In this document: positions 23,971-39,473 of the stretch, piece after piece
Position numbering within the stretch: position 1 is the stretch's first letter
Layout of the letters: the number at the start of each line of letters is the position of its first letter
DNA from: Verrucomicrobiota bacterium
GTDB taxonomy: Bacteria; Verrucomicrobiota; Verrucomicrobiia; Limisphaerales; UBA9464
Reading direction: 5' to 3'
Assembly (NCBI GenBank): GCA_947454705.1
Contig: CANGKZ010000002.1
Coordinates: 78,882-142,881, forward strand
Length of the DNA stretch: 64,000 nt
Notes under the pieces: generated by a model
Seen by the model: the letters and a program-made list of their open reading frames with translations, nothing else
Database searches by the model: none
Told to the model about the DNA's origin: nothing
Made by a program: the position numbers and the translations under genes

Positions 23971-24120
23971 TGAAACCAGTTGGATTTAGAGGAGCACTCA
24001 TTCGGCCAACTTTTGGATTTCGGCATTCCGGCGGCTTGTGGTGCCGGCGTGACGACCGCAATCCATGCACCACAACGCGCCTCCGGGACGGGGACGGTGC
24101 GTTCCAATTCCGGGTCCGGA

Positions 24121-26410: not shown

Positions 26411-26448
26411 GCCGGGCCCGAAAACCCAGTCGCTGATTCCGAATTCCG

Positions 26449-27669
26449 ATGACCTTCTCCCACACATCCCTCCCCGCGGACGCTCTGCCTTCCGGCGGGG
26501 GCCGCAGTGGCGCGGGGGCGCCGGAGATCACGGATCTGCGACTGGGATTCCTCCCGCTGACTGATGCCGCACCGCTGCTGGTCGCGGTGGCCCGCGGATT
26601 CTTTGCGGCCGAGGGATTGAATGCCGAGGCGGTGCGCGTCCCCAGTTGGACCGCGTCGCGCGACGCCCTTGAATCCGGCGCGGTTCACGCCGCGCAGATG
26701 CTCTACAGCATGCCGCTGGCCTCGCGCCTCGGCATTCTCGGCCACGAGTCCGCACCCCTGGTGGTTCCCTGGGTTCTCTCGCGCGGCGGACAGGCCATCA
26801 CGCTGGCCAAGCGCCACGCGGGCTCGGTGAAGTCCGACGCCCGCGCGCTGCATCGGCTGGCTTCAGAACGGATCGAAATGGGTCGCCCGCTGGTCTTTGC
26901 CCAGACACTTCCTCCCGGCACGCATGCCCTCTGGCTGCGTTACTGGCTGGCGGCGGGTGGTATTGATCCCGACCGCGACGTCGCCCTGATAACCATTCCG
27001 CCTCCGATGATGGTGCGGAATCTTGCCGGTGGACGCCTCGATGGTTTCTGCGCGGGTGAACCATGGAATGCCGTCGCTCAGCGCGAAGGCAGCGGCTTTA
27101 CCGCCATTACCTCCGACACCTTGTGGGCGAATCATCCGGAGAAAGTCTGCGCCTTCCGCTCCGACTTCGCCGCCCAACATCCACGCACCGTGAAGGCTGT
27201 GCTCCGCGCGCTGCATGCCGCGGGACGCTGGTGCGATGATCCTGCAAACGCTGCGGAACTCTCCTCGCTGCTCGCCGCCCCGCAACATCTCAACTGCGCG
27301 GTGGAAACGGTTCAGTCGCGGTTGAAGCCCGGATTCGAGCTCGGCGACGGACGCCAGGCGGGCGTCGGGGCGGTGCCGGTGTTCTCGGGCGATGCGATGA
27401 ACCGCCCGCGCATCGATGAATGCCTGTGGTTCCTCTCCCAGTACCGCCGATGGGGTTTCATTTTTGGTACGCCCGATTACCGCGCGATCGCCGACTCGGT
27501 GCTCCGGCCGGATTTGTACCGCGACGCGCTCTCCGAACTGGGCATCGCTGTCGCGGATTCGGAGGAGACGCCCGGTCCGCACGCGGCAGCGTTTCAATCG
27601 ATGAACTTCGATCCCGCAAATCCCGAAGCCTGCGCGCTCGCGTTCGAGATCAAATCCCCGCGCTCCTGA
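26449..27669 (+). CDS. second signal-less NrtA-like protein
   Basis: The N-terminus MTFSHTSLPADALPSGGGRSGAGAPEITDLRLGFLPLTDAAPLLVA has no leader. It has PPPMMVRNLAGGRLDGFCAGEPWN and LWFLSQYRRWGF and is paralogous to the 25148 gene. Confidence 0.8.
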   Translation: MTFSHTSLPADALPSGGGRSGAGAPEITDLRLGFLPLTDAAPLLVAVARGFFAAEGLNAEAVRVPSWTASRDALESGAVHAAQMLYSMPLASRLGILGHESAPLVVPWVLSRGGQAITLAKRHAGSVKSDARALHRLASERIEMGRPLVFAQTLPPGTHALWLRYWLAAGGIDPDRDVALITIPPPMMVRNLAGGRLDGFCAGEPWNAVAQREGSGFTAITSDTLWANHPEKVCAFRSDFAAQHPRTVKAVLRALHAAGRWCDDPANAAELSSLLAAPQHLNCAVETVQSRLKPGFELGDGRQAGVGAVPVFSGDAMNRPRIDECLWFLSQYRRWGFIFGTPDYRAIADSVLRPDLYRDALSELGIAVADSEETPGPHAAAFQSMNFDPANPEACALAFEIKSPRS

Positions 27670-27717
27670 CCGTTTTGCCCGCATCTGTTGGTTCCCATTT
27701 CCCTGTTTCCCTGTGTC

Positions 27718-28512
27718 ATGAAAACTCCCTGGAATCGCTTTGATTTCCTCCTCCTGCCGCTGCTGGGCGGGGCCTTCATTCTGCTACTCTGGCACCTGTC
27801 GAGCCACTCATGGTCGGGTGATTTGCCGGACCCGGCGAAGACCTGGCATGAGTCCAAGCCCTACGTGCTCGAACCTTGGGCCAAGCGCGGAGAGCTCGAT
27901 CAGGGCATCCTGCGGTTCACCTTCCTGTCGCTCATCCTGGTGGCCAAGGGCTATGCCATCGCGCTGATTCTCGGTACGCCGATCGGGTTTTTCCTCGGTC
28001 TCTCGCCGACCTTCAACAAGGCCTTCGATCCGATCATCCAGATCCTCCGTCCGGTTTCCCCGCTCGCGTGGCTTCCGCTCGGGATGGTGCTGTTTGCCAA
28101 GATCAAGGGGATCAATGTCACCGAAGTCGCCGCGTTGTTCACCATCGCGCTGTGCTCGATGTGGCCGACCGTTCTCAACACTGCGGTCGGAGTGCGGGCG
28201 ATTCCGACCGATTACCTCAACGTGGCGCGGGTGTTGAAGCTCTCGCGCTGGAAGACGCTCACCAAGGTCATGATCCCGGCGACGTTGCCGTACATGTTCA
28301 CCGGGTTCCGGCTGAGCCTCGGCATTGCGTGGCTGGTGATCGTCGCTGCTGAAATGCTCACCGGCCGTCCCGGCGTCGGCGGCTTCCTGTGGCAGCAGTA
28401 CAACGCGCTGGTGTACGAGCAGATCATCCTCTGCATCCTCACCATTGGCGGCGTGGGCTTCATCCTCGACCGCCTGATGAGCGTGATCGAACGCCGCTTC
28501 AAGACGATCTGA
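27718..28512 (+). CDS. nrtB: nitrate ABC transporter permease
   Basis: ORF 27688..28512; ATG 27718 is preferred over TTG 27688. It is a multi-TM protein with the EAA-like loop VARVLKLSRWKTLTKVMIPATLPYMFTG. Confidence 0.85.
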   Translation: MKTPWNRFDFLLLPLLGGAFILLLWHLSSHSWSGDLPDPAKTWHESKPYVLEPWAKRGELDQGILRFTFLSLILVAKGYAIALILGTPIGFFLGLSPTFNKAFDPIIQILRPVSPLAWLPLGMVLFAKIKGINVTEVAALFTIALCSMWPTVLNTAVGVRAIPTDYLNVARVLKLSRWKTLTKVMIPATLPYMFTGFRLSLGIAWLVIVAAEMLTGRPGVGGFLWQQYNALVYEQIILCILTIGGVGFILDRLMSVIERRFKTI

Positions 28513-28546
28513 TCCGATCCCTTCCCACACCTGCCCAAACCAAGCC

Positions 28547-29467
28547 ATGGCATTTCTCCAACTCCAGGGAGTCTCGATGGGCTACGGCGTGCCCGGGGGC
28601 CGAACCGAGGTGCTTGCCGACATCGATCTCGAGATCGAGCAGGGCGAGTTCGTGGCGATCGTTGGATACTCCGGATCGGGAAAGACCACGCTGATGTCGA
28701 TCCTCGCGGGACTCATCCGCCCCGAAAAGGGACGCGTGATCTTCGACGGGCAGGACACCCCGGGACCGGGTCCGGACCGCGGACTCGTGTTCCAGAATTA
28801 CAGCCTGCTTCCCTGGCTCACGGTTCACGAGAACGTCTCGCTCGCGGTGGACCAAGTCTTCCCGCAGCTGAGCGAATCGGAACGCAAGAGCCACACCGAT
28901 CGGTTTGTGCAGATGGTGAATCTCACCCCGGCACGCGACAAACGTCCGAGCGAACTCTCCGGCGGCATGCGTCAGCGCGTGAGTGTGGCCCGAACCCTGT
29001 CCATGCAGCCCAAGGTGCTGTTGCTCGATGAACCGCTCGGCGCCCTCGATGCGCTGACCCGCGCGACGCTTCAGGATGAAATCTCCCGCATCCGTCTGGC
29101 CGAGAAGCAGACCGTGGTGTTGATCACGAATGATCCGGATGAAGCCATCCTGCTGGCCGACCGCGTGATCCCGCTCACCGCGGGTCCGCGCGCGACGCTC
29201 GGACCGAGCATTCCCGTGACGCTGTCGCAGCCGCGCGATCGCCGCACGCTGCTGGGCAATTACGACTTCAAGCAGATCCGCCACGAGGTGATCCAGTACC
29301 TGCTCAAGGCGCGTCCGCGGCATCGCACCACGCTCTCCCGTTCGCTCGTGCTTCCCGACGTGGAACCCGAGGACATCACGCATCGCCCGCCCCCACTGTT
29401 CGCCAAGCCGGGCAGCGCGCGGAGAAAGAGTGAAATGAAGACCGAATCGGTGGAGGTGACCCTGTGA
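28547..29467 (+). CDS. nitrate ABC transporter ATP-binding protein (NrtC-type core, no C-terminal NrtA-like domain)
   Basis: It has Walker A GYSGSGKTT, the signature LSGGMRQR and Walker B LLLDEP. Confidence 0.85.
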   Translation: MAFLQLQGVSMGYGVPGGRTEVLADIDLEIEQGEFVAIVGYSGSGKTTLMSILAGLIRPEKGRVIFDGQDTPGPGPDRGLVFQNYSLLPWLTVHENVSLAVDQVFPQLSESERKSHTDRFVQMVNLTPARDKRPSELSGGMRQRVSVARTLSMQPKVLLLDEPLGALDALTRATLQDEISRIRLAEKQTVVLITNDPDEAILLADRVIPLTAGPRATLGPSIPVTLSQPRDRRTLLGNYDFKQIRHEVIQYLLKARPRHRTTLSRSLVLPDVEPEDITHRPPPLFAKPGSARRKSEMKTESVEVTL

Positions 29468-30309
29468 GCGCGCACCTCGAACTCTTCAACCTCACCAAGG
29501 TGTATCCCTCGAAAAAGGGGCCGCAGACCATTGTCCGCGATTTCAACCTCCAGATTCCGAAGGGCGAATTCGTCAGCATCATCGGCCACTCCGGCTGCGG
29601 AAAATCCACGGTGCTCATGATGGTGGCCGGTCTCACCACGGTGACCAGCGGCGGCATCATCCTGGCCGGACGCGAACTCAGCGGGCCCGGCCCGGACCGC
29701 GGAATTGTGTTCCAATCACCCTCGCTCCTTCCGTGGATGACCGCGCGCGAGAACGTGATGCTCGGCATCAACCAGGTGTTCTTCACCGCCACCGAACAGG
29801 AGCGCGCGCAGATCGCCGAGTACTACCTCAGCGTGGTGGGGCTCGCGGACTTCATGGACAAGCGTCCCGCGGAGTTGTCCCAGGGCATGCGCCAGCGCGT
29901 GGGCATTGCCCGCGCCTTCGCGCTCAAGCCGAAGATGCTCCTGCTCGACGAGCCGTTCGGCATGCTTGATTCCCTCACGCGCTACGAATTGCAGCAGGTG
30001 CTCATCGACCTGTGGCGACGCAATCAGATCACCACCGTCATGGTGACGCACGATGTGGACGAGGCGCTGTATCTGTCGGACCGCGTGGTCTGCATGACCG
30101 ACGGCCCCGAGGCCGGCATCGGCGAGATCCTCAACGTCCCGCTCCCCCGGCCGCGCGACCGCAAGGCCATCCTTGAGCTCCCCGAGTATCACCGTCTTCG
30201 CGCCACGCTCATCGAGTTCCTCGAAGTCCGTGCCCATCACCGTCCCAACTCCTCCAACTCTCCTTCCGGCGCAGCAACCCCGCCGGCGTCCGTTCCCGTT
30301 TCCGCCTGA
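29464..30309 (+). CDS. nrtD: nitrate ABC transporter ATP-binding protein
   Basis: GTG 29464 overlaps the upstream stop (GTGA). It has Walker A GHSGCGKST, the signature LSQGMRQR and Walker B LLLDEP. Confidence 0.85.
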   Translation: MSAHLELFNLTKVYPSKKGPQTIVRDFNLQIPKGEFVSIIGHSGCGKSTVLMMVAGLTTVTSGGIILAGRELSGPGPDRGIVFQSPSLLPWMTARENVMLGINQVFFTATEQERAQIAEYYLSVVGLADFMDKRPAELSQGMRQRVGIARAFALKPKMLLLDEPFGMLDSLTRYELQQVLIDLWRRNQITTVMVTHDVDEALYLSDRVVCMTDGPEAGIGEILNVPLPRPRDRKAILELPEYHRLRATLIEFLEVRAHHRPNSSNSPSGAATPPASVPVSA

Positions 30310-30337: not shown

Positions 30338-31870
30338 ATGAACACTCCCTCCCCCATCACCTCTCCGGCCCGAACCGCTCTCGCCGCCGCGGCGGTGCTC
30401 GCGGTCGCCTGTTCCATCACGTCGTCCCAAGCCTCGCCGCCGCTCGACCTCGGGATCAACACGCCGCTCCGCCCCAGCACCGGTTATCTCAATGATTACC
30501 TGCGTGCCGATGATCCCTACATGGCCGCATGGAACCTCGGCGTGCAGTATCGTGCGCGGTACGAGATCAAGGAAAACGGCGGCGCGACCGGCGCGGGATC
30601 GGGAACTGACTTTTCCGCCAAACCCGGCGTCGCCAATGACAATGCGTATCTGCTCCAGAAGACGCTGATCCGCGTCGGCTACACCGCCAAGTGGTGGGAG
30701 GCGTTCGTCCAGGGTCGCAACAGCTCGAGCACGAGCGACAAGCGTCCCAGCACTGGTGCACTGCCCGGATCGGGCGCGGGACCAGAGTCCGACGGCCCCA
30801 TCGATCTCCACCAGGCCTACATCAGCGTCGGCAACCACAAGGAATTCCCATTCTCCGTTAAAGTGGGACGCCAGGAGCTGAGCTACGGCGAGGAGCGTCT
30901 GGTGGGTGCGTTCGCCTGGAACAATATCGGACGCGTGTTCGATGCCGCGAAGTTGCGCTGGCAGAACTCGTGGTTCTCGGGCGACTTCTTCACCTCGCGT
31001 ATCGTCCTGCCCGACGACAACAACTTCAACACGCCGAACGACTACGACTACTTCTCCGGCGCGTACCTCACCTCGAAGAAGATTCCGACGATGCAGACGG
31101 AATTCTACTTCCTCGCCCGCAACGCGAGCCCGCAGGCCACCGCCCCTGGACCGCGCAGCCCGTTCACCGTCGGAACGGCGCGCGACATCTACACCGTCGG
31201 TGCCCGTCTGGTCACCGCCACCAACGACTGGGGCAACATCAACTTCTTCGTCGATGGCGCGTACCAATTTGGACACTACAACGATCCGGCCATCGCCGCG
31301 GTCGGCGCGCGCGGTCTCGAACAGAAGGCCTACATGGTGGTGGCCAACGGCAGCTACACGTGGCAGGAGGCGGCCTTCACGCCGAAGCTCGGATTGGAAT
31401 ATTGCTTCGGCTCCGGTGACTCGAACCCCACCGACGGCAAGCACGAGACGTTCGAGAATCTCTTCCCCACCAACCACAAGTTCTACGGCTTCGCGGATTT
31501 CGCCTCGCTGCAGAACCTTCACGACGTCCGCCTCTACAGCAGCGTCAAGCCGCTCTCCCGTTTGACGCTCCTCGCCGAGGCGCATCTGTTCTGGTTGGCC
31601 GACACCCACGACAATTTCTACAACGTCGGCGGCGCGCGCCGCGGCGGCCTCGCGGCCACCCCGGGCACCGGATACGGAATCAATCCCGGATACAGCTCGG
31701 ACCTCGGCACCGAAACCGACCTGATCGCCACCTGGGCCCTGTCCCCGTACGCCAGCATCGAAGTCGGCTACTGCCACTTCTTCCGCGGCAACTACGTGAA
31801 GGACTCGCTCTCCGTGATCGGATCCAAGGATGCCGACTACGTGTACCTCCAGACTCAGCTGAGCTTCTGA
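30338..31870 (+). CDS. outer-membrane beta-barrel porin, alginate-export (AlgE-like) family
   Basis: It has a signal peptide (AAAAVLAVACSITSSQA), IDLHQAYISVGN...VKVGRQELSYGEERLVGAFAWNNIGRVFDAAKLRW, alternating-residue strands and a terminal aromatic F. Confidence 0.75.
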   Translation: MNTPSPITSPARTALAAAAVLAVACSITSSQASPPLDLGINTPLRPSTGYLNDYLRADDPYMAAWNLGVQYRARYEIKENGGATGAGSGTDFSAKPGVANDNAYLLQKTLIRVGYTAKWWEAFVQGRNSSSTSDKRPSTGALPGSGAGPESDGPIDLHQAYISVGNHKEFPFSVKVGRQELSYGEERLVGAFAWNNIGRVFDAAKLRWQNSWFSGDFFTSRIVLPDDNNFNTPNDYDYFSGAYLTSKKIPTMQTEFYFLARNASPQATAPGPRSPFTVGTARDIYTVGARLVTATNDWGNINFFVDGAYQFGHYNDPAIAAVGARGLEQKAYMVVANGSYTWQEAAFTPKLGLEYCFGSGDSNPTDGKHETFENLFPTNHKFYGFADFASLQNLHDVRLYSSVKPLSRLTLLAEAHLFWLADTHDNFYNVGGARRGGLAATPGTGYGINPGYSSDLGTETDLIATWALSPYASIEVGYCHFFRGNYVKDSLSVIGSKDADYVYLQTQLSF

Positions 31871-31918: not shown

Positions 31919-33724
31919 ATGCCCGTGGTCCCGCGAATTCCTGAAAGCGCCCCCTTCACGCCGCAGCAGCGGGCGTGGCTCGATGGATACCTCGCGGGCC
32001 TTCTCTACGACGCTCCGGGCAACGGAGCGTCGGGTGCGACTGCGACGGCGAGTGCATCAATCCCGGTACAGCGCATTCCGCTGCTGGTGGCCTTTGGGTC
32101 GCAGACCGGATCGGCGGGGAACCTGGCCAAGTCGATCTCGCGTGAGGCGGATCGACGCGGCTTTCAATCCACGCTCAAGGAACTGAACACCGTCTCTCCT
32201 GCGGATCTCGCGGCCCAGTCGCTCTGCGTGCTGGTCACCAGCACGTGGGGCGACGGCGATCTGCCCGACAACGGCGTCGAGTTTTGGAATGCCCTTCGCG
32301 GTGACACCGCGCCGCGAATGGAATCGCTTCGCTTCGCGGTGTTGGGATTGGGCGACAAAAACTACGCCGACTTCTGCGGGGCCGCGCGGAAGTTGGATGA
32401 ACGGCTCGCCACCCTCGGTGCACGACGCCTCGTTCCCCGGGGCGAGTGCGATGTCGATTTTCAAGCCGCCGCTGCGGCATGGACGGCGTCGTTGTGGTCC
32501 GCGTTGGAAGCGGAGAAATCGGGAGCCAGTTCCGCTCCCGCAGCGGCACCCGCTTCGGTCGTTCCTGCGAACCCCGCTCTCGAGCACCCGGCTCCCGCCT
32601 ACTCCCGCGCCAAGCCGTTCGGCTCCCGCCTCCTCGTGAATCGGAAGCTCAACCGCGAGGGTTCCGAAAAAGATACGCGCCATCTGGAGCTCTCGCTCGC
32701 GGGAAGTGGATTGACCTATGAGGCGGGCGACGCGCTGGGCGTGGTGCCTTCGAATCCTCCAGCTTTGGTGGATGCAGTCCTCACGCGGCTCGGATGTTCG
32801 GGTGGTGAGTCCATTGCTCTCGCCGATGCCGGAGCGATCCCGCTCGGCGAAGCGCTGTCCCGCCGTCTGCTGTTGTCGGCGATTCCCGATTCCTTCCTTC
32901 AGGAGTCGGCCAAGCGGTCTTCTAACTCCGCGTTGATGGCGCTGTTCCAACCGGATCAGAAGCCGGCGTTGGAAGCGTGGAAGTACGGCCGCGACATCCT
33001 CGACGTTTTGGAGGCGTGTCCGGCGGCTAAGTTTGATCCCGCTGAATTCACCGGCTTCCTGCGCAAGCTCCAGCCGCGGTTGTACTCCATTGCCTCGTCC
33101 CCGAAGGCGCATCCGGGCGAGGTGCATCTCACGGTGTCGGTGGTGCGGTACGAGACCCACGGTCGCAAGCGCACCGGGCTTTGCTCCGGATTCCTGGCCG
33201 ATCATGTGGCCCTGCGCGAAACCGAGGTGCCGGTGTACGTGCAGACCTCGCACGGGTTCCGTCTGCCCACGGATGGTTCGGTGCCGGTGATCCTCATCGG
33301 ACCGGGCACCGGCATCGCGCCGTTCCGCGCCTTTCTGGAAGAGCGGCGCGCCACCGGGGCCAGCGGTTCCAACTGGTTGTTTTTCGGCGACCAGCGTCGT
33401 GCGGTTGATTTCCTGTATGAGGAGGAGCTGGTGCCGATGCATCAGGATGGATTCCTCACGCGGCTCGATCTGGCCTTCAGCCGCGATCAGGCGGCCAAGA
33501 TTTACGTGCAGGACCGCATGCGCGAGCACGGAGCAGAACTCTGGAAGTGGCTCGAGCGCGGTGCGCATCTGTACGTGTGTGGCGACGCCAAGCGCATGGC
33601 CAAGGATGTGGATGCGGCGTTGCGCCAGGTGATCGAGCAGGCCGGCGGCCGCACGACCGATCAAGCCGCCGAGTACGTGGCCGCGCTCAAGACGGCCAAG
33701 CGGTATCAGCGCGACGTGTACTGA
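31919..33724 (+). CDS. CysJ-like diflavin (FMN flavodoxin + FAD/NADPH) reductase
   Basis: The flavodoxin part has LLVAFGSQTGSAGNLAK...TSTWGDGDLPDN. The FNR part has RLYSIASSP, GLCSGFL, IGPGTGIAPFRAF, FFGDQ and YVCGD...MAKDV. The N-terminal roughly 50 aa carry the motif QQRAWLDGYLAGLL. Confidence 0.85.
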   Translation: MPVVPRIPESAPFTPQQRAWLDGYLAGLLYDAPGNGASGATATASASIPVQRIPLLVAFGSQTGSAGNLAKSISREADRRGFQSTLKELNTVSPADLAAQSLCVLVTSTWGDGDLPDNGVEFWNALRGDTAPRMESLRFAVLGLGDKNYADFCGAARKLDERLATLGARRLVPRGECDVDFQAAAAAWTASLWSALEAEKSGASSAPAAAPASVVPANPALEHPAPAYSRAKPFGSRLLVNRKLNREGSEKDTRHLELSLAGSGLTYEAGDALGVVPSNPPALVDAVLTRLGCSGGESIALADAGAIPLGEALSRRLLLSAIPDSFLQESAKRSSNSALMALFQPDQKPALEAWKYGRDILDVLEACPAAKFDPAEFTGFLRKLQPRLYSIASSPKAHPGEVHLTVSVVRYETHGRKRTGLCSGFLADHVALRETEVPVYVQTSHGFRLPTDGSVPVILIGPGTGIAPFRAFLEERRATGASGSNWLFFGDQRRAVDFLYEEELVPMHQDGFLTRLDLAFSRDQAAKIYVQDRMREHGAELWKWLERGAHLYVCGDAKRMAKDVDAALRQVIEQAGGRTTDQAAEYVAALKTAKRYQRDVY

Positions 33725-33743
33725 ATCGAATCCAAGAACTCCC

Positions 33744-35489
33744 ATGACCTGGACCGAGATCGCTGGAGAAAAACTGAACGCGGAGCAGGGGGCCTATCTC
33801 GACGGACTGTTCGCCGGGTTGCGCAATCGCGGATTCTCCTTCGCCGATGCGGCGCCGGGACCTTCGGGCGGGGCGGTCGCAACGCCGCCGCCGTTGGAAG
33901 ACCTCATCCCCGAGGAGCGGATCAAGCGTGAGCTGCATCCGCTCGATGCCTATCCGCTGCTGCTCCAGCACGCCACGGCGAATCAGGGACCCGACCGCGA
34001 GAACACCTTTCGCTTCAAGTGGAATGGCCTCTTCTACGTCGCGCCGAAGCAGGACGGCTACATGGCACGCCTTCGGATTCCGGGCGGACAACTCTTCAGC
34101 TTCCAACTCCGTGAACTCGCGGCGATCGCCGACGAACTCACCTCCGGCTACACGCAGATTACAACCCGGGCGAATCTGCAAATGCGGCTCATCCAGCCCC
34201 GCGACACGATTGAATTCCTGCGCCGCGTCCAGGGCACCGGCCTCCACACCCGCGGCGCGGGCGCGGACAATGTTCGGAATCTCACCTGCGATCCCACCAG
34301 CGGCTTCGCCCCCGAAGAATTGATCGAGACCATGCCCCTGACGCAGGGCCTCGCTCAGTTAATCCTCAACCACCGCGAGTTCTACGACCTTCCCCGCAAG
34401 TTCAACATCGCCTTCTACGGCGGCGGCCCGATCCCCACGGTCGAGGACACCAACGACATTGGCTTCCGCGCCGTCCGTATCGAAGCCTCGAAAGAGGACG
34501 CTCCCGGAATTGAACCCGGCGTGTACTTCCGCGTGGCGCTCGGCGGTGCCACCGGACACAAGGCCTTTGCCCGCGATCTCGGCGTGCTGGTGAAGCCTGA
34601 TCAGGCCGTGCAGGTGGCGGGTGCGCTGCTGCGGGTTTACGTCGCGAATGGAAATCGGACGGATCGAAAGAAGGCGCGGCTCAAGCACCTGCTCGAGACC
34701 TGGACCCTCGAACGCTACCTCGCCGAGACCGAGCGACTTCTCGGCCACACGTTGCTTCGCGCTCCCGCGGAAACCGTCGTGCCCGAACCCCCGAGTACTT
34801 CGCATCCGCAGGTGGGCGTGTTCCCGCAAAAGCAGCGCGGACTGAACTGGATTGGCGTCGCCGTGCCCGTGGGACAGATCACCTCGCGTCAGTTGCGCCG
34901 GCTCGCGGAACTTTCCGAACTTTACGGCAACGGGGAGGTGCGGCTCACCGTGTGGCAGAACCTGATTCTCCCGGGCATTGGCGATGCGTTTGTCGAAACG
35001 GTGAAGAAGGCGCTGGTGCGGATTGGGCTCGATTGGAAGGCGTCCAATGTCGGCACCGGGATCATCGCCTGCACCGGAAACCGCCACTGCAAGTTTGCGA
35101 GCGCCGACACCAAGGGCCACGGGCTCGCGCTGATGAAGCACCTCGAATCGCGCGTGGAGCTCGATCAACCCATCAACATCCACCTCACCGGATGCCCGAA
35201 CTCGTGCGCGCAGCACTACATGGGCGACCTCGGATTGCTCGGGGCGACGGTTAAGGTCGGCGGCGAATCCCGCGAGGGGTATCACATTTTTGTCGGCGGC
35301 GGATTCGGCTCCCGCCAGGCAGTGGGACGCCAGCTCTTCCAGGGCGTCACGCTTCAGGAACTCCACTCCACGGTGGAACGGATCCTTCGCGGCTACCTGC
35401 GTCATCGGAGCGCGGGCGAATCCTTCCAGGCCTTCACGGTTCGACACGAGATCGGCCGGCTGCAGGAACTGTTCGCCGAGCCGGTGTGA
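33744..35489 (+). CDS. nirA: siroheme/[4Fe-4S] nitrite (or sulfite) reductase hemoprotein, NirA-type
   Basis: Cluster and siroheme Cys motifs are IACTGNRHCKFA and TGCPNSCAQHYMGDLGL, with two NIR_SIR repeats. The nitrate context favours nitrite reductase. The N-terminus carries EQGAYLDGLFAGL. Confidence 0.8.
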   Translation: MTWTEIAGEKLNAEQGAYLDGLFAGLRNRGFSFADAAPGPSGGAVATPPPLEDLIPEERIKRELHPLDAYPLLLQHATANQGPDRENTFRFKWNGLFYVAPKQDGYMARLRIPGGQLFSFQLRELAAIADELTSGYTQITTRANLQMRLIQPRDTIEFLRRVQGTGLHTRGAGADNVRNLTCDPTSGFAPEELIETMPLTQGLAQLILNHREFYDLPRKFNIAFYGGGPIPTVEDTNDIGFRAVRIEASKEDAPGIEPGVYFRVALGGATGHKAFARDLGVLVKPDQAVQVAGALLRVYVANGNRTDRKKARLKHLLETWTLERYLAETERLLGHTLLRAPAETVVPEPPSTSHPQVGVFPQKQRGLNWIGVAVPVGQITSRQLRRLAELSELYGNGEVRLTVWQNLILPGIGDAFVETVKKALVRIGLDWKASNVGTGIIACTGNRHCKFASADTKGHGLALMKHLESRVELDQPINIHLTGCPNSCAQHYMGDLGLLGATVKVGGESREGYHIFVGGGFGSRQAVGRQLFQGVTLQELHSTVERILRGYLRHRSAGESFQAFTVRHEIGRLQELFAEPV

Positions 35490-35514: not shown

Positions 35515-37224
35515 ATGACGCGTCCGCATCTTGCCGAGTCCCCCGGGGAAGACGTCGGCACGTTGATCGATGCGTTGATCCGCGAGCAGCAGCAGCTCAG
35601 CGCCGTGGAGGCCTTCTCCGCCCGGCACGATTCCGCGGGCCCCGCGCTTGAGGGGCAGTACCGACACCTCATCCCGCTTACCGCGCCGCGGCCCGGCGAA
35701 CAGTACGGATTCCAGGTGGATCTCGACCGCTGCTCCGGCTGCAAGGGATGCGTCACCGCCTGCCATTCGCTCAATGGATTGGAACCCGGCGAGAGCTGGC
35801 GCGAGGTGGGCCTGTTGGTGGGCGAAGCCATCCTGCCGCGACCCGCGGGAGCCGGTCCGGGCTCGGTTGCGTTGCCCGTGCAGCGGACGGTGACCACGGC
35901 CTGCCATCACTGCATCGAGCCCGCGTGCCTGCTCGGCTGCCCGGTGCTGGCCTACGACAAGGAGCCGGTCACCGGCATTGTGCGTCACCTAGACGACCAA
36001 TGCATCGGATGCAGCTACTGCATCATGACCTGTCCGTACGAGGTCCCCAAGTTCTCCAAAAAGCGCGGAATCGTTCGCAAATGTGATCTTTGCCACGGAC
36101 GCCTCTCCGAAGGCGAGGCGCCGGCGTGTGTGCAGGCGTGTCCGAATCAAGCCATCCAGGTGACGCTGGTTTCGCGGGAGTGGGTGCGATTGGAATTCCG
36201 TCCGCCCGGCGGAGCGAAAGACAACGCGACTGCCTGCGGAAGCACGTGGCTGCCGGACGCGCCGCAACCGGGCATCACGCTTCCCACCACGCGTTATCTC
36301 ACGCGGAATCCCGATGTCTCGCTGGTGGCGGCCGATCACTTTGAATCCAAGCCTCAGCCCGCGCACGTGCCGCTGATTCTGCTGCTGATCGGCACCCAGA
36401 CGGGAATGGGCGGCATGGCGGTTGCCGCGCTGATGCACTGGATCGGAGCCGCGGATCGAAGTGGACCAGGATTGGTTCAGCTGGGATTTGCCGCGATGAC
36501 GTTGTTTGGGGTCGGCATGCTGGGCAGTGTCGCCCACCTGGGCCGGCCGCAGAAGGCGTGGCGCGTGTGGATGGGATGGCGAACCAGTTGGTTGAGCCGC
36601 GAGGCGATGATTCTCCCCGTGTTTGGTGCCGTGGCTGGCGGTGTACTGACCGACTGGATGGCGCGGCTCTGGATTCCGGAGCATTGGATTTCCACGCCGG
36701 TCGCCGCGCCTGTCGTGGCCGCCGTGTGGATCGTCGCGCTGCTTTGCCTGATTGCCCAGACGCAGGTGTACGCCAGCACCGCCCGATGGAGCTGGCGCGT
36801 GGGATCCACGTTTCCGCGATTTGTTGGATCGAGTGTCATTCTTGGATCCGCGCTCGGCCTCGCTGTTCCGGCTGCTGCGGAACAGAGCGCGCCCCTGTTG
36901 CTGTCGCTCGTGATCGCGAGTGTGTGGAAGCTCGTTCTTGAAGTCCGAGCCGTGACCGGACGGGGCATCGATGCGCGATGGAAGGTGGAATCCGACCGTC
37001 AAATCCGGCTGCTCAGCGGACCGTTGCGAATCTTCTGGGGACTCCGCGTATCGATCAGCCTGCTGTCGGGAATCGCGCTGCCGTTGGGACTGCTGGTCGG
37101 ATCCGGGAAGGTGAGTCCGATGGTTGGTGCGAGTTTGTTTTTGGGGGCGCTCTCTGGAGAAGTGCTGGAACGATGGTTGTTTTTCCGCGCTGCGGCGCAG
37201 AACCGGATGCCGGGAATGCCATGA
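35515..37224 (+). CDS. fusion of a DmsB/PsrB-like four-cluster ferredoxin and an approximately 8-TM DmsC-like membrane anchor
   Basis: ORF 35290..37224 trimmed to ATG 35515 ([11 protein letters not shown]). The Cys motifs are [37 protein letters not shown] and CDLCHG...ACVQACP. The C-terminal half has about eight hydrophobic helices. There is no RR leader. Confidence 0.8.
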
Positions 37225-39473
37225 AGCACGATGCGTCAACCGAAGGACCGATTCCGGTACGCCCGCCCAACACGCTCCTGCGCGAGTGGACGGGGCCGAT
37301 GACGTCGGACCTCGTGCGGTCACCGGGCGCGTTCGGACTCGGCCAGGTCCCGTCGCGGCTCAAGCCGGATTCCGTCACCACCGCGGTGTGTGGGTTTTGC
37401 TCCACCGGATGCGGGCTCAAGCTGCACCTGCGCGAGGGTGAGGCGGTGAACGTCACGCCCGATCCGGCGTATCCGGTGAATTTGGGAATGGCGTGTCCCA
37501 AGGGCTGGGAAGTGCTCGCTCCGCTCGAGGCGACCGATCGCGTCACCACGCCGCTCCTGCGCAATCCGGCGAGCGGGAAGCTCGAACCGGTGTCATGGGA
37601 ACAGGCGATGACGGCGTTCGTCACGCGCATGCGCGGCGTGCAGGAGCGGCACGGAGCCCATTCCATCGCGTACCTGAGCACGGGGCAGATCTGCACCGAG
37701 GAAATGGCCTACCTTGGGGCGTTGTTCAAATTTGGGATGGGCGGATTGCACGGCGATTCCAACACCCGCCAGTGCATGGCCACCGCGCACGTGGCGTACA
37801 AGCAGAGTTTCGGATTTGATGCGCCGCCTTACACCTACGCGGATTTCGAGGAGTCGGACGTGCTGGTGTTCGTGGGCGCGAATCCGTGCATCGCGCATCC
37901 CATCCTGTGGCAGCGGGTGCTGAGGAATCCGCATCGGCCCGAGATCATCGTGCTGGACCCGCGCCGCACCGAGACCGCAGTCAACGCCACGCTGCATCTC
38001 CCGCTCGCGCCGAAGTCGGACCTCACCCTGCTGTACGGAATCGCGGCGGCGCTGATCGCCCGCGGTGCGGTGAACCAGGCGTTTGTCGAAGCCCACACCG
38101 AGGGCTACGAGGCGTTCGCCGCGTTCGTCGCGAACTTTACCCCGGAGCAGGCCTGTGCTGCAGCGGAGTTGGAGCGTACCGAGTTTGATCGATGCGTGGA
38201 TCTCATCGCCCGCGGCAAGCGCGTGAGCTTCTGGTGGACCATGGGAGTGAACCAGGGTCACGAGTCCACGCGCACTGCGCAGGCGTTGATCAACATCGCG
38301 TTGATGACCGGCAATATTGGTCGACCGGGCACGGGGGCGAATTCGATCACCGGTCAGTGCAACGCGATGGGCTCGCGGTTGTACGCCAATGCGACTTCGC
38401 TCCTGGGCGGACGTGACTTTGCCCAGCCTGCGCACCGCGCCCGTGTGGCGGCGGACCTCGGGATCGATCCCGCGCGTGTGCCCGACCAGAGTTCGTGGGC
38501 CTACGATCAAATCATCGATGGCATCGACCGGGGCGACATCAAGGGCCTGTGGGTGATCGCCACCAACTCCTCGCATTCGTGGATCGACGGCGGGAGGTTC
38601 GACCGGATTCTCGACAAGCTGGATTTCCTCGTGGTGCAGGACTTGTACGCCACCACGGACACGGCGCGTCGGGCGGACCTGATTCTCCCCGCCGCTGGAT
38701 GGGGGGAGAAGGAAGGCACGCTGATCAACAGCGAGCGGCGGATCGGCCGGGTGAAGAAGGTGCGTCGCGCGCCGGGCGTGGCGTTGAGTGATTTCGCGAT
38801 CTTCCGATTGGTCACTGCGGCGTGGGGATGCGGTTCGATGTTTGCGGAATGGAATTCCCCCGAGGCCGTGTTTCACGTGTTGAAGCGGCTCAGTGCGGGT
38901 CAGCCGTGCGACATGACCGGCATTCGCGACTACGCGCATTTGGATCAATCGGGCGGAATCCAATGGCCGTGGCCCGCCGCCGCGGGCGATGCCCTGGAAC
39001 AGGAGCCGGCCACGGAGCGGCGTTTGTTTTCCGATGGGCGCTTTCCCACGGCGTCGGGACGTGCGCGGTTCCTGTTCGATCCCCCGCGGGCCGTGGCCGA
39101 GCCCACCGATGCGGAGTATCCGTTTGTGCTGATGACCGGTCGCGGATCCTCGGCGCAGTGGCATACCAACACGCGCACGGGGAAGTCGGATATTTTGCGT
39201 CGGCTCTATCCGGCCGAGGCGTACGTGGAGATTCATCCCGCGGATGCTGCGCGGCTGGGGATCCGACCGCATGCGAAGGTGGTGGTGCGGACGCGTCGGG
39301 GCAGTTTGGAAGTGAATGCGTTTGTGACCCCGACCGTTCGGGAAGGGCAGGTGTTCCTGCCGATGCATTACGACGGCGTGAATCGCCTGACGGCACCGGC
39401 CTTTGATCCGCACTCACGTCAGCCGAGCTACAAGCACTGCGCTGCGGTGCTTGAGGCGAGGTTGAACGGTTGA
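37221..39473 (+). CDS. nasA: assimilatory-type molybdopterin nitrate reductase catalytic subunit (NasA/NarB-like), no Tat leader
   Basis: ATG 37221 overlaps the upstream stop (ATGA). It has the N-terminal [4Fe-4S] motif [13 protein letters not shown]...GMACPKG plus bis-MGD domain strings ([37 protein letters not shown]). The 5' part of track ORF 36978..39473 was discarded. Confidence 0.85.

What the first reader, a model, noticed from the sequence alone, without database searches (positions are those of the whole stretch)
31919..35489. CysJ-like diflavin reductase paired with a NirA-type siroheme enzyme; both carry a similar N-terminal xxAxLDGxxAGL motif
Seen in sequence: a 601-aa flavodoxin+FNR protein (CysJ layout) ends 19 nt before a 581-aa NirA/CysI-type hemoprotein. 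Both begin with an extra segment containing a near-identical short motif (QQRAWLDGYLAGLL versus EQGAYLDGLFAGL). Established: CysJ donates NADPH electrons to the sulfite reductase hemoprotein CysI, whereas NirA-type nitrite reductases normally use ferredoxin. Inference: within a nitrate operon this suggests an NADPH-driven CysJI-like nitrite reductase. The shared N-terminal motif may act as a docking or oligomerisation tag.
Basis: partly seen in the sequence, partly recalled or inferred. Interest (0 to 1): 0.55.

Follow-up and report, generated by a model that had tools for sequence, protein, structure and literature searches.

The report
Nitrite reductase pair sharing assembly tag
A nitrate-assimilation operon encodes a siroheme nitrite reductase next to a CysJ-type NADPH flavoprotein, and both start with the same short helix that in E. 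coli CysJ is the self-assembly tag, which points to a tethered NADPH-driven nitrite reductase that I could not find described or tested.

Summary
A 601-aa CysJ-type diflavin reductase ends 19 nt before a 581-aa NirA-family hemoprotein. They sit in one nitrate operon (3x nrtA, ntrB, 2 ATPases, porin, cysJ-like, nirA, FeS-membrane protein, nasA).

The hemoprotein has all four cluster/siroheme cysteines. Its anion site is nitrite-type (R109, R178, K219, N221), whereas sulfite reductases have Lys at the last position. It belongs to a monophyletic, tag-bearing clade, separate from untagged sulfite reductases that sit next to cys genes.

In 80 related loci from Verrucomicrobiota, Acidobacteriota and Alphaproteobacteria, a CysJ-like gene is adjacent in 69 and in the cluster in 4 more. 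No gene annotated for sulfate assimilation (cysC, cysH, sat) was seen in the annotated tag-bearing loci.

The shared motif is real (profile-profile P=5.6e-11) and present in every complete orthologue. In both proteins it is a predicted helix with a GxxxG core, followed by a disordered tether.

On the CysJ side it corresponds to the E. coli CysJ N-terminal peptide, which is necessary and sufficient for octamerisation. The critical Y39/F40 fall between the two glycines.

Best reading: an NADPH:nitrite reductase built like CysJI, possibly co-assembled through the shared tag. No biochemistry exists.

The parts
31919..33724 (+). cysJ-like gene: 601-aa NADPH diflavin reductase (tag, tether, flavodoxin/FMN, FAD, NADPH)
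   Evidence: Pfam domains at residues 57-182, 229-425 and 459-564. TIGR01931 cysJ scores 624 bits, below its cutoff of 668; NF004859 scores 518, above 432. E. coli SiRFP-60 scores 426 bits from residue 55. The FNR module is 47% identical to E. coli CysJ.
31940..32008 (+). N-terminal tag of the reductase (residues 8-30, PESAPFTPQQRAWLDGYLAGLLY); predicted helix 15-28; GxxxG core G23-Y-L-A-G27
   Evidence: AF2 predicts helix 15-28 with pLDDT of about 75-82. The tag is conserved in 113/120 close orthologues by regex and in all complete CysJ-like ORFs of the related loci. It aligns to E. coli CysJ residues 29-44 and lies within the TIGR01931 match, which starts at residue 14.
32009..32074 (+). Ala/Gly/Ser/Thr-rich disordered tether of the reductase (residues 31-52)
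   Evidence: AF2 pLDDT is below 50 for residues 32-49. Length and sequence vary among orthologues.
32087..33610 (+). Catalytic modules of the reductase: flavodoxin (32087-32464), FAD-binding (32603-33193), NAD(P)H-binding (33293-33610)
   Evidence: G60-S-Q-x-G64 and S521-R522...K527 are invariant in alignment A3. Their roles as the FMN loop and the 2'-phosphate ligands are from my own knowledge of CPR and CysJ.
33744..35489 (+). nirA-family gene: 581-aa siroheme/[4Fe-4S] hemoprotein
   Evidence: NF007126 scores 738 bits, above its cutoff of 523. Tobacco and spinach ferredoxin-nitrite reductases score 230 and 222 bits; E. coli CysI scores 75. The AF2 model has mean pLDDT 79.7.
33765..33833 (+). 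N-terminal tag of the hemoprotein (residues 8-30, GEKLNAEQGAYLDGLFAGLRNRG); predicted helix 13-28; GxxxG core G21-L-F-A-G25
   Evidence: AF2 predicts helix 13-28 with pLDDT 53-65. The tag is conserved in 112/120 close orthologues and in 80/80 N-termini that lie on their contig, counting the window. It lies upstream of the segment that aligns to the E. coli CysI N-terminus. It is absent from E. coli CysI and from the SirA-type enzymes.
33834..33902 (+). Pro/Ala/Gly-rich disordered tether of the hemoprotein (residues 31-53)
   Evidence: AF2 pLDDT is below 50 for residues 35-45. The segment varies among orthologues.
34398..34406 (+). Codons for K219-F220-N221, the nitrite-type anion-site signature (sulfite reductases have K-x-K)
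   Evidence: A MAFFT alignment maps E. coli CysI K215/K217 to K219/N221. The residues are invariant in A1. They align to tobacco nitrite reductase LPRKWN. K-x-N tracks nitrate context and K-x-K tracks cys context.
35070..35207 (+). Codons for the four cluster/siroheme cysteines C443, C449, C484 and C488
   Evidence: They map to E. coli CysI C434, C440, C479 and C483 and are invariant in A1.
23980..30309 (+). Nitrate ABC transporter genes upstream in the same orientation: three NrtA-like binding proteins (23980-25173, 25148-26410, 26449-27669), permease (27688-28512) and two ATPases (28547-29467, 29464-30309)
   Evidence: NMT1_2 domains, TIGR01183 ntrB and TIGR01184 ntrCD.
30338..31870 (+). Alginate_exp-family outer-membrane porin gene directly upstream of cysJ-like
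   Evidence: PF13372 scores 209 bits. The gene recurs in related nitrate clusters.
35515..37224 (+). DmsB-like poly-ferredoxin fused to a DmsC-like membrane anchor; the likely electron input for the nitrate reductase
   Evidence: Fer4_11 plus PF04976 DmsC. The start codon was chosen by eye. The gene is conserved next to nasA in 49/80 loci.
37221..39473 (+). NasA-type molybdopterin assimilatory nitrate reductase; its start overlaps the previous stop (ATGA)
   Evidence: Molybdop_Fe4S4, Molybdopterin and Molydop_binding domains. The NasA and NasC models are the best NCBIfam hits, though below their cutoffs.

Best explanation
The two genes encode the two subunits of an NADPH-dependent assimilatory nitrite reductase, organised like E. 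coli sulfite reductase CysJI but specialised for nitrite. Electrons would pass NADPH -> FAD -> FMN in the CysJ-like protein, then to the [4Fe-4S]-siroheme centre of the NirA-family hemoprotein, which reduces nitrite to ammonium. Each subunit begins with a roughly 16-residue helix ([LF]-[ST]-x-E-Q-x-x-[WY]-L-x-G-[FYL]-[FL]-A-G-[LV], with a GxxxG core) held on a 20-25-residue disordered tether. The reductase's helix is the counterpart of the E. coli CysJ N-terminal peptide that drives octamerisation. I propose that the hemoprotein's copy lets it join the same helical bundle, so that donor and acceptor are tethered in one hetero-oligomer. Shown here: the gene anatomy, the cofactor and active-site residues, conserved synteny, conservation and statistical significance of the tag, and the helix-plus-tether prediction. 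Established elsewhere: the oligomerisation function of the E. coli peptide. Inferred: that the CysJ-like protein is the physiological donor of NirA (about 0.7), and that the two tags co-assemble rather than each protein self-assembling (about 0.4-0.5).
For: 1. Nitrite-type hemoprotein. R109, R178, K219 and N221 plus all four Cys ligands are present. The family-score order is NirA family 738 > ferredoxin-nitrite reductase 368 > CysI 160/117. Plant nitrite reductases are the best PDB hits. The tag-bearing clade is monophyletic at 100/100.

2. A complete CysJ-type reductase. It matches E. coli SiRFP at 426 bits. The residues I take, from my own knowledge, to be the FMN loop and the NADPH 2'-phosphate ligands are invariant.

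3. Synteny. In 80 loci from three phyla the CysJ-like gene is adjacent to nirA in 69, in either order, and elsewhere in the cluster in 4 more. Most of the rest are cut by contig ends. The neighbours are nrtABCD, nasA and the FeS-membrane gene.

4. In Alphaproteobacteria the partner keeps the tag and the FNR module but swaps flavodoxin for a PF04060 Fe-S module. The tag plus FNR plus NirA association therefore survives a change of the electron-carrier domain.

5. The Methylocystis cluster has both an Flp-like FAD oxidoreductase and the tagged reductase between the transporter genes and the nitrate reductase. In B. japonicum, Flp is needed for nitrate but not nitrite assimilation (PMC4724949). 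That leaves the tagged reductase as the candidate donor for NirA.

6. Tag statistics. hhalign P=5.6e-11 and the cross-family HMM test. Among the 150 best tag carriers in 1.84 billion representative proteins, 133 are CysJ-like, 16 are NirA and 1 is an unrelated repeat protein.

7. Both tags are predicted helices followed by tethers with pLDDT below 50.

8. E. coli CysJ residues 1-52 are necessary and sufficient for octamerisation. Y39/F40 (with Q22 and Q47) are critical, and they map between the two glycines of the motif.

9. Negative controls. Untagged K-x-K homologues lie next to cysC, cysH or sat and have no CysJ-like neighbour.
Against: There is no biochemical or genetic test of the donor for any member. 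B. japonicum NirA was assayed only with methyl viologen and is called ferredoxin-dependent by assumption. I did not verify that bll4571 belongs to this clade.

A few loci have a tagged NirA with no CysJ-like gene within reach: L010 (10 kb on each side), L007 and L034.

In E. coli the hemoprotein docks on the FNR domain through its own N-terminal 80 residues, not through the CysJ tag. Residues 54-86 of NirA align to that CysI region, so docking could work in the E. coli manner and the tag could serve only for self-assembly.

Family-specific residues in the two tags (RAW-LNG versus K-x-Y-L-x-G) are each conserved, so the tags are not interchangeable copies. AF2 confidence for the NirA helix is only 53-65. 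No multimer prediction could be run. The deep phylogeny of NiR versus SiR is unresolved in my NJ tree (6/100).
Confidence: 0.62

Rival explanations
1. NirA is ferredoxin-dependent, as it is annotated, and the CysJ-like protein serves another acceptor in the cluster, such as the nitrate reductase, or acts as a general NADPH:flavodoxin-type reductase. Each tag then only drives homo-oligomerisation of its own protein.
For: The field view is that siroheme nitrite reductases use ferredoxin (PMC11947256). Diflavin modules do feed nitrate reductases in NasN-type fusions. In L060 the cysJ-like gene follows nasA rather than nirA. The E. coli tag is a homo-oligomerisation device.
Against: The cysJ-like gene is directly adjacent to nirA in 69/80 loci, whatever the position or presence of nasA. 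NasA has its own FeS-membrane partner in 49/80 loci, and an Flp-like partner in Methylocystis. The Sulfitobacter plasmid carries only the NirA plus flavodoxin-FNR pair, with no annotated nitrate reductase in the stretch fetched. No ferredoxin gene was found in the window cluster. Among the top carriers, the tag occurs on no family other than these two.
Confidence: 0.2
2. The pair is a sulfite reductase (a CysJI variant) that happens to sit in a nitrate cluster. M. tuberculosis 'NirA' turned out to be a sulfite reductase in this way.
For: The flavoprotein is named 'sulfite reductase subunit alpha' by NF004859 and nearly reaches the cysJ equivalog cutoff. M. tuberculosis NirA/SirA is the third-best group of solved homologues at 202 bits.
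Against: Asn221 replaces the second Lys of the sulfite site. The CysI and Sir models score 103-160 bits against cutoffs of 457-757. Homologues in a cys context all have K-x-K, lack the tag and fall outside the clade. No cys gene was seen in the annotated tag-bearing loci, and neighbours in the 80 loci are nitrate-assimilation genes.
Confidence: 0.04
3. Both tags bind a common third partner or surface, for example the FeS-membrane protein or the membrane itself, rather than each other.
For: GxxxG helices are common in membrane-protein packing (my own knowledge). A membrane-anchored FeS protein is encoded next door in 49/80 loci.
Against: The tag is retained in alphaproteobacterial and Sulfitobacter clusters that lack the FeS-membrane gene. 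The helix is short and carries E, Q, R/K and N/D residues. The E. coli peptide oligomerises a soluble SUMO fusion by itself.
Confidence: 0.07
4. The N-terminal similarity is chance or convergent low complexity and has no shared function.
For: Only about 17-19 columns are involved, and the hydrophobic moment is unremarkable. One unrelated repeat protein tops the profile search.
Against: hhalign P=5.6e-11. The NirA-only HMM ranks 51/75 CysJ-like ORFs above all unrelated ORFs. Both tags occupy the same place (extreme N-terminus, then a tether) and are conserved across three phyla. 149 of the 150 top carriers belong to the two families.
Confidence: 0.03

Closest known systems
[quoted passage not shown]
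   Same: A two-gene unit of a diflavin reductase (N-terminal oligomerisation peptide, tether, flavodoxin, FNR) and a siroheme/[4Fe-4S] hemoprotein. The FNR module is 47% identical. The Cys ligands and three of the four anion-site residues are conserved.
   Different: The fourth anion-site residue is Asn, not Lys. The context is a nitrate cluster, not a cys cluster. The hemoprotein carries a copy of the reductase's tag, which E. coli CysI lacks. E. coli CysI docks on the FNR domain through its own N-terminal 80 residues. Both equivalog cutoffs are missed.
Ferredoxin-nitrite reductase NirA of plants, cyanobacteria and haloarchaea (EC 1.7.7.1)
   Same: The best solved homologues (230 bits). It shares the K-x-N signature, monomer fold and nitrate-assimilation role.
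   Different: Those enzymes have no N-terminal tag and no CysJ-like neighbour; alignment to plant nitrite reductase begins only at residue 87. The NF007125 cutoff is not reached (368 < 594). Their donor is free ferredoxin.
Bradyrhizobium japonicum NirA (bll4571)
   Same: A genetically proven assimilatory nitrite reductase of an alphaproteobacterium, of similar length (625 aa), lacking FAD/NAD domains. Bradyrhizobiaceae and Methylocystis carry tagged NirA-family genes with a tagged FNR partner.
   Different: Its donor was never tested; only methyl viologen was used. I did not verify that bll4571 is in this clade. Its published locus is nasT-nasS-nirA, and a partner gene is not discussed.
E. coli SiRFP N-terminal octamerisation peptide (residues 1-52)
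   Same: The position, the following tether, and a G-[YF]-[FL]-x-G core preceded by Q-x-A-W. The critical Y39/F40 map to Y24/L25 of the reductase and L22/F23 of NirA.
   Different: E. coli is predicted to have a helix-turn-helix with two partial repeats, whereas one helix is predicted here. I did not find it described on a hemoprotein in the papers I read. Oligomeric states here are unknown.
NasN-type NADPH nitrate reductase of mycobacteria and NasA-CysJ fusions
   Same: A precedent for a CysJ-type diflavin module feeding a nitrogen-assimilation enzyme.
   Different: There the module is covalently fused to a molybdoenzyme and reduces nitrate. Here it is a separate subunit paired with a siroheme nitrite reductase.
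NirBD/NasB NAD(P)H-dependent siroheme nitrite reductases
   Same: A pyridine-nucleotide-driven assimilatory nitrite reduction on a siroheme/[4Fe-4S] centre.
   Different: NirB has its FAD/NADH domain fused and belongs to another subfamily (TIGR02374 scores 62 bits against a cutoff of 578). It has no flavodoxin module and no tag.

Membership tests
NCBIfam NF007126 'NirA family protein' (PRK09567) | Whole-protein score above the curated cutoff of 523 bits | tested here: met
   737.9 bits, residues 49-579.
NCBIfam NF004859 'sulfite reductase subunit alpha' (PRK06214) | Whole-protein score above the curated cutoff of 432 bits | tested here: met
   518 bits in two stretches; the best covers the FNR part, 189-601. 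Typical alphaproteobacterial members have a PF04060 Fe-S module where this protein has flavodoxin.
CysJ, NADPH sulfite reductase flavoprotein (TIGR01931 / NF008197) | Equivalog cutoff (668 / 838 bits) | tested here: not met
   624 and 520 bits.
CysJ, NADPH sulfite reductase flavoprotein | Architecture: N-terminal oligomerisation peptide, tether, flavodoxin, connection/FAD domain, NADPH domain | tested here: met
   The TIGR01931 alignment starts at residue 14, so it includes the tag.
CysJ, NADPH sulfite reductase flavoprotein | Partner is a sulfite-reducing CysI encoded in a cys operon | tested here: not met
   The partner has K-x-N and lies in a nitrate cluster.
CysI/SirA sulfite reductase hemoprotein | Anion site Arg, Arg, Lys, Lys (E. 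coli R83, R153, K215, K217) | tested here: not met
   R109, R178, K219 and N221. CysI and Sir models score 103-160 bits, far below their cutoffs.
Siroheme nitrite/sulfite reductase superfamily | Four Cys ligands of the [4Fe-4S]-siroheme centre and two NIR_SIR repeats | tested here: met
   C443, C449, C484 and C488 map to E. coli C434, C440, C479 and C483. Pfam finds NIR_SIR x2 and NIR_SIR_ferr x2.
Ferredoxin-nitrite reductase NirA (NF007125, EC 1.7.7.1) | Equivalog cutoff of 594 bits | tested here: not met
   368 bits.
Ferredoxin-nitrite reductase NirA | Nitrite-type K-x-N signature and nitrate-assimilation context | tested here: met
Ferredoxin-nitrite reductase NirA | Reduced ferredoxin is the physiological donor | not testable with these tools
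   This needs an enzyme assay. The conserved CysJ-like neighbour argues for another donor.
SiRFP-type N-terminal oligomerisation tag | An extreme N-terminal helix with a G-(aromatic/hydrophobic)2-x-G core, followed by a flexible tether | tested here: met
   It holds for both proteins: helices 15-28 and 13-28, and tethers with pLDDT below 50. The mapping to E. coli G38-Y-F-W-G42 is.
SiRFP-type N-terminal oligomerisation tag | Drives stable oligomer (octamer) formation, also when fused to a carrier | not testable with these tools
   Shown only for E. coli. No multimer prediction was available.
CobG precorrin-3B synthase (TIGR02435) | Score above the 234.8 cutoff and a cobalamin-pathway context | tested here: inconclusive
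   The score of 329.6 exceeds the cutoff, but it is less than half the NirA-family score. The context is nitrate assimilation with no cob genes. I rejected it as the assignment.

The most novel reading that the evidence does not exclude
A siroheme hemoprotein has acquired a variant of its reductase's portable GxxxG oligomerisation helix. Donor and acceptor would then co-assemble into one tethered hetero-oligomer through a mixed N-terminal helical bundle. That assembly principle differs from E. coli sulfite reductase, where the hemoprotein docks on the FNR domain and only four of eight reductase subunits are occupied. The same tag system is used with two alternative electron-carrier modules, flavodoxin in Verrucomicrobiota and Acidobacteriota and a PF04060 [4Fe-4S] module in Alphaproteobacteria. 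This would define a widespread, overlooked class of NAD(P)H-dependent NirA nitrite reductases, currently annotated as 'ferredoxin-nitrite reductase' plus 'sulfite reductase subunit alpha'.
Probability: 0.4. Interest if true: 0.75.

Novelty: new variant of a known kind. Interest (0 to 1): 0.6.

Why it matters
Assimilatory NirA-type nitrite reductases are treated as ferredoxin-dependent in textbooks, metabolic models and metagenome annotation. The partner gene is labelled as a sulfite-reduction gene.

If the pair is an NADPH:nitrite reductase, nitrogen and sulfur budgets inferred from cysJ and nirA counts are mis-assigned. This applies to soil and freshwater Verrucomicrobiota, Acidobacteriota and many Alphaproteobacteria, including methanotrophs and rhizobia relatives. 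The untested donor of the alphaproteobacterial NirA family would also gain a concrete candidate.

For enzymology, the shared tag is a natural experiment on the long-standing question of why and how CysJ oligomerises. It predicts a hemoprotein that enters the bundle itself. It also shows the tag staying with the FNR module when the carrier domain is swapped.

The tag is of practical interest as a small self-assembly module. The 2026 E. coli preprint already proposes it as an oligomerisation tag for cryo-EM.

Tried and rejected
1. CobG assignment. The TIGR02435 cutoff is exceeded. I rejected it because the NirA-family score is more than twice as high and the context is nitrate assimilation.

2. 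Sulfite-reductase reading. I rejected it on Asn221, the model scores, the clade and the context.

3. Natural NirA::CysJ fusions. P0247, P0282 and P0380 looked like fusions in the representative search. Their sequences show frame-shifted read-through of the nirA-cysJ junction with the cysJ start Met visible. They are not fusions.

4. P0241, the top profile hit, is a 1754-aa repeat protein with 10 copies of WSWLTGFFSGLMGDGSG. It is unrelated.

5. A tag on other operon proteins. There is none in NasA, the FeS-membrane protein, the porin or the transporters, in the window or in 80 loci.

6. The idea that the NirA tag is the counterpart of the E. coli CysI 'ESNYLRG' N-terminal segment. I rejected it because that segment aligns to NirA residues 54-70, downstream of the tag and tether.

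7. The promoter and terminator scan of 23-41 kb gave fewer or as many sites as shuffles, so it is uninformative about operon structure.

8. The helical hydrophobic moment is unremarkable (0.13-0.21) and not diagnostic.

9. The exact-sequence contig lookup for P0121 found nothing, so the source genome was not identified beyond 'Verrucomicrobiota-like'.

10. Five literature searches for a described NirA-CysJ system found none. That is absence from the open-access library only.

11. Co-variation between paired tags was not attempted statistically. Both tags are too conserved, and shared phylogeny would confound it.

Full report
**Observation.**
- ORF 31919-33724(+) encodes a 601-aa protein with Flavodoxin_1 (residues 57-182), FAD_binding_1 (229-425) and NAD_binding_1 (459-564).
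- ORF 33744-35489(+) encodes a 581-aa protein with two NIR_SIR and two NIR_SIR_ferr repeats.
- The two are separated by 19 nt.
- QQRAWLDGYLAGLL and EQGAYLDGLFAGL are present near the two N-termini.
- A strict pattern for the motif matches nowhere else in the six-frame translation of the window.

**Gene context.** The two genes lie in a co-directional run that reads as a nitrate-assimilation operon.
- Three NrtA-like binding proteins (23980-27669), an NtrB permease and two NtrC/D ATPases (27688-30309).
- An Alginate_exp-family porin (30338-31870).
- The cysJ-like gene and nirA.
- A DmsB-like poly-ferredoxin fused to a DmsC-like membrane anchor (35515-37224).
- A NasA-type molybdoenzyme (37221-39473) whose start overlaps the previous stop.

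The promoter and terminator scan was uninformative. Close homologues are from Verrucomicrobiota.

**What the hemoprotein is.**
- NCBIfam places it in NF007126 'NirA family protein' (738 bits, cutoff 523). It lies far above the ferredoxin-nitrite reductase equivalog (368, below its cutoff of 594) and the CysI and Sir models (103-160).
- The best solved relatives are tobacco and spinach ferredoxin-nitrite reductases (230 and 222 bits). M. tuberculosis SirA (202), maize sulfite reductase (114) and E. coli CysI (75) follow.
- Aligned to E. coli CysI, the four cluster/siroheme cysteines are conserved (C443, C449, C484, C488). The anion site reads R109, R178, K219, N221 against E. coli R83, R153, K215, K217. 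All these residues are invariant among 20 orthologues.
- The K-x-N triplet aligns to LPRKWN of plant nitrite reductase.

**Small tree with controls.** I built an NJ tree that adds annotated plasmid-borne homologues.
- All tag-bearing proteins form one clade (100/100 bootstraps) and all have K-x-N.
- Homologues next to cysC, cysH or sat have K-x-K where the triplet could be read (Deinococcus, Streptomyces, Thermus, Cytobacillus). This group, including Planctomyces whose triplet did not match, has no tag and no CysJ-like neighbour. Chlorohelix, next to siroheme-synthesis genes, is also K-x-K and untagged.
- A haloarchaeal ferredoxin-nitrite reductase next to nasA has K-x-N and no tag.
- Deep branching among nitrite and sulfite reductases is not resolved (6/100). 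I therefore claim only that the family is distinct and nitrite-type, not its exact sister group.

**What the flavoprotein is.**
- It is a genuine CysJ homologue: 426 bits to E. coli SiRFP-60 from residue 55. Identity to E. coli CysJ is 47% in the FNR module and 33% in the flavodoxin module.
- It narrowly misses the cysJ equivalog cutoff (624 < 668). It passes NF004859 'sulfite reductase subunit alpha'.
- The G-S-Q-x-G loop (residues 60-64) and the S521-R522...K527 triad are invariant in 20 orthologues. That these are the FMN loop and the NADPH 2'-phosphate ligands is my own knowledge of CPR and CysJ, not a test made here.

**Conservation of the pairing.** A scan of one genome per species returned 80 loci.
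- They come from several orders of Verrucomicrobiota, from Acidobacteriota (Granulicella, Paracidobacterium) and from Alphaproteobacteria (Xanthobacteraceae, Bradyrhizobiaceae, Stellaceae, Methylovirgula). A few MAGs carry implausible labels.
- A CysJ-like gene is directly adjacent to nirA in 69 loci (26 upstream, 43 downstream) and elsewhere in the cluster in 4.
- Of the remaining 7, four are limited by a contig end. L010, L007 and L034 lack the gene within the sequence available.
- NasA occurs in 58 loci, nitrate transporter genes in 42 and the FeS-membrane gene in 49.
- The neighbour screen compared ORFs only with the window's own proteins, so it could not detect cys genes. RefSeq annotation of the Methylocystis and Sulfitobacter loci lists none.

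RefSeq annotation of cultured strains shows the same arrangement. Methylocystis sp. MJC1 has ANTAR regulator, nrtA x2, ntrB, ATPase, an FAD-dependent oxidoreductase, 'NirA family protein', 'sulfite reductase subunit alpha' and nitrate reductase. Sulfitobacter pontiacus has 'NirA family protein' followed by a 584-aa 'flavodoxin domain-containing protein', with no annotated nitrate reductase in the stretch fetched.

**The motif.**
- Among the 120 closest database homologues of each protein, the motif is found by regex in 112 (NirA) and 113 (CysJ-like). The misses are single substitutions or truncated entries.
- Across the diverse loci, every NirA N-terminus that lies on its contig has it (80/80 counting the window). 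So does every complete CysJ-like protein. The apparent exceptions are contig-end truncations, one frameshift and two regex misses.
- The consensus is APF-[ST]-x-EQR-A-W-[LVI]-N-G-[FY]-[LF]-A-G-[LVM] in the reductase and [LF]-[STN]-x-EQ-x-x-Y-L-x-G-[FL]-[FM]-[AS]-G-[LV] in the hemoprotein.
- The invariant or near-invariant columns are the Gln and the two Gly of a G-x-x-x-G.
- Profile-profile comparison of the two N-terminal alignments gives 97.1% probability and P=5.6e-11.
- As an empirical control, an HMM built from NirA tags alone scores 51 of 75 CysJ-like ORFs above the best of roughly 11,000 unrelated stop-to-stop ORFs. The reverse test is weaker, at 11/80.
- A combined 31-column profile searched against 1.84 billion representative proteins finds 846 at E<=1e-3. 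Of the best 150, 133 are CysJ-like (many are N-terminal fragments), 16 are NirA and 1 is an unrelated repeat protein.
- No other protein in the window or in the 80 loci carries the tag.

**Anatomy of the tag.** AlphaFold2 with 20-sequence alignments predicts the same layout in both proteins: a single N-terminal helix, a low-confidence segment, then the folded enzyme.

| Protein | Helix | Helix pLDDT | Segment with pLDDT < 50 |
|---|---|---|---|
| NirA family | 13-28 | 53-65 | 35-45 |
| CysJ-like | 15-28 | ~75-82 | 32-49 |

In NirA, the tag and tether precede the segment 'LIPEERIKRELHPLDAY' (residues 54-70). That segment is what aligns with the N-terminal 'LTDAERMKHESNYLRG' region of E. coli CysI. 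The tag is therefore an addition upstream of the usual hemoprotein N-terminus.

**Link to known biology.**
- The TIGR01931 cysJ model aligns to the window protein from residue 14, so it includes the tag.
- E. coli CysJ residues 29-44 (TPTQLAWVSGYFWGVL) align to the reductase tag HMM. E. coli CysI gives no hit.
- A 2026 preprint reports that E. coli SiRFP residues 1-52 are necessary and sufficient for octamerisation: a SUMO fusion becomes an oligomer. It also reports that Q22, Y39, F40 and Q47 are critical, and that AlphaFold predicts a helix-turn-helix on a tether.
- In the E. coli sequence, Y39 and F40 sit between G38 and G42. These are the positions occupied by Y24-L25 in the window reductase and L22-F23 in NirA.
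[quoted passage not shown] It also restates the view that siroheme nitrite reductases use transiently bound ferredoxin.
- The reductase half of the 'shared motif' is thus the ordinary CysJ oligomerisation peptide. The unusual part is that the hemoprotein has one too.

**Module swap.**
- In the alphaproteobacterial loci, the partner lacks flavodoxin. Behind the same tag and tether it has a Cys-rich module, AAMAQQDCGQCGY-x-C...LNLCVPGG (C-x2-C-x3-C-x19-C). This matches Pfam PF04060 'Putative Fe-S cluster'. The FNR module follows.
- The association of tag, FNR module and tagged NirA is therefore kept while the carrier domain differs. This is hard to explain unless the protein works with NirA.
- The Methylocystis cluster also encodes an Flp-like FAD oxidoreductase. 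In B. japonicum, Flp is required for growth on nitrate but not nitrite, and the donor of NirA was only assumed to be ferredoxin because assays used methyl viologen.
- In the window, the nitrate reductase has its own FeS-membrane neighbour. By elimination, the tagged reductase is left for NirA. This step is inference.

**Mechanism proposed.** NADPH reduces FAD, then FMN, in the CysJ-like subunit. In Alphaproteobacteria the second carrier would be the Fe-S module. The carrier domain reduces the [4Fe-4S]-siroheme centre of NirA, which performs the six-electron reduction of nitrite to ammonium. Both subunits are held together by their N-terminal GxxxG helices in a mixed bundle, with 20-25-residue tethers that allow the carrier domain to reach the hemoprotein. 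I rate the donor-acceptor relationship at about 0.7 and the co-assembly at about 0.4-0.5.

The main alternative keeps NirA ferredoxin-dependent and lets each tag drive only homo-oligomerisation. A variant has docking occur as in E. coli, through NirA residues 54-86. Points against my reading:
- there is no biochemistry for any member;
- three loci lack the partner nearby;
- each tag keeps its own family-specific residues;
- AF2 confidence for the NirA helix is modest;
- I could not run a multimer prediction.

**Novelty.** Five literature searches found no description of a NirA-CysJ nitrite reductase or of the tag on a hemoprotein. The nearest precedents are diflavin modules fused to nitrate reductases, namely NasN and NasA-CysJ. 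The search covers open-access papers only. The gene pair is common and is already modelled by NCBIfam, so specialists may have noticed it. I rate it a new variant of a known kind: a CysJI-type architecture applied to nitrite, with an assembly feature not seen in E. coli. Interest is 0.6.

Noticed in passing
window 35515-39473 (+): A DmsB-like four-cluster ferredoxin fused to a DmsC-like membrane anchor (PF04976) is translationally coupled (ATGA) to a NasA-type nitrate reductase. Neither shows a Tat or signal peptide by eye. The pair recurs in 49 of 80 related loci. It may be a quinol-fed, cytoplasm-facing assimilatory nitrate reductase.
   Followed up: partly
L064, L067, L071, L072, L077, L080; L082 8728-10317: The alphaproteobacterial 'sulfite reductase subunit alpha' partners carry the same N-terminal tag. 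They replace flavodoxin with a PF04060 Fe-S module (C-x2-C-x3-C-x19-C) in front of the FNR domain.
   Followed up: partly
window 30338-31870 (+): An Alginate_exp-family outer-membrane porin gene is embedded between the nitrate ABC transporter and the reductase genes. Homologues recur in many related clusters, so it may be a nitrate/nitrite porin.
   Followed up: no
window 23980-27669 (+): Three tandem NrtA/NMT1_2 substrate-binding protein paralogues (36-46% identical to each other) precede the single permease. Related loci often have two or three as well.
   Followed up: no
window 33744-35489 (+): The NirA-family protein also exceeds the curated cutoff of the CobG (precorrin-3B synthase) equivalog TIGR02435 (329.6 > 234.8). 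This is a possible source of mis-annotation.
   Followed up: partly
P0241 (representative library), residues ~700-1100: A 1754-aa protein with ten tandem copies of '...WSWLTGFFSGLMGDGSG...' is the top hit of the tag profile. It looks like a tape-measure-type repeat protein and is unrelated to the reductases.
   Followed up: partly
window 39722-43519 (-): A 1265-aa ORF combines an N-terminal BlaR1-type M56 peptidase domain with a C-terminal Secretin domain, immediately downstream of the nitrate operon and convergent with it.
   Followed up: no
L082 5764-6978 (Methylocystis sp. MJC1 plasmid): An Flp-like FAD-dependent oxidoreductase sits directly upstream of the NirA family gene and the tagged FNR partner, and nitrate reductase follows. 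The cluster therefore carries two different candidate reductases, one per terminal enzyme.
   Followed up: partly
L004, L012, L023 (record titles): Some MAGs carrying near-identical Verrucomicrobia-type clusters are labelled Kapaibacterium or Bifidobacteriaceae/Bifidobacterium. This is probably binning contamination or mislabelling.
   Followed up: no
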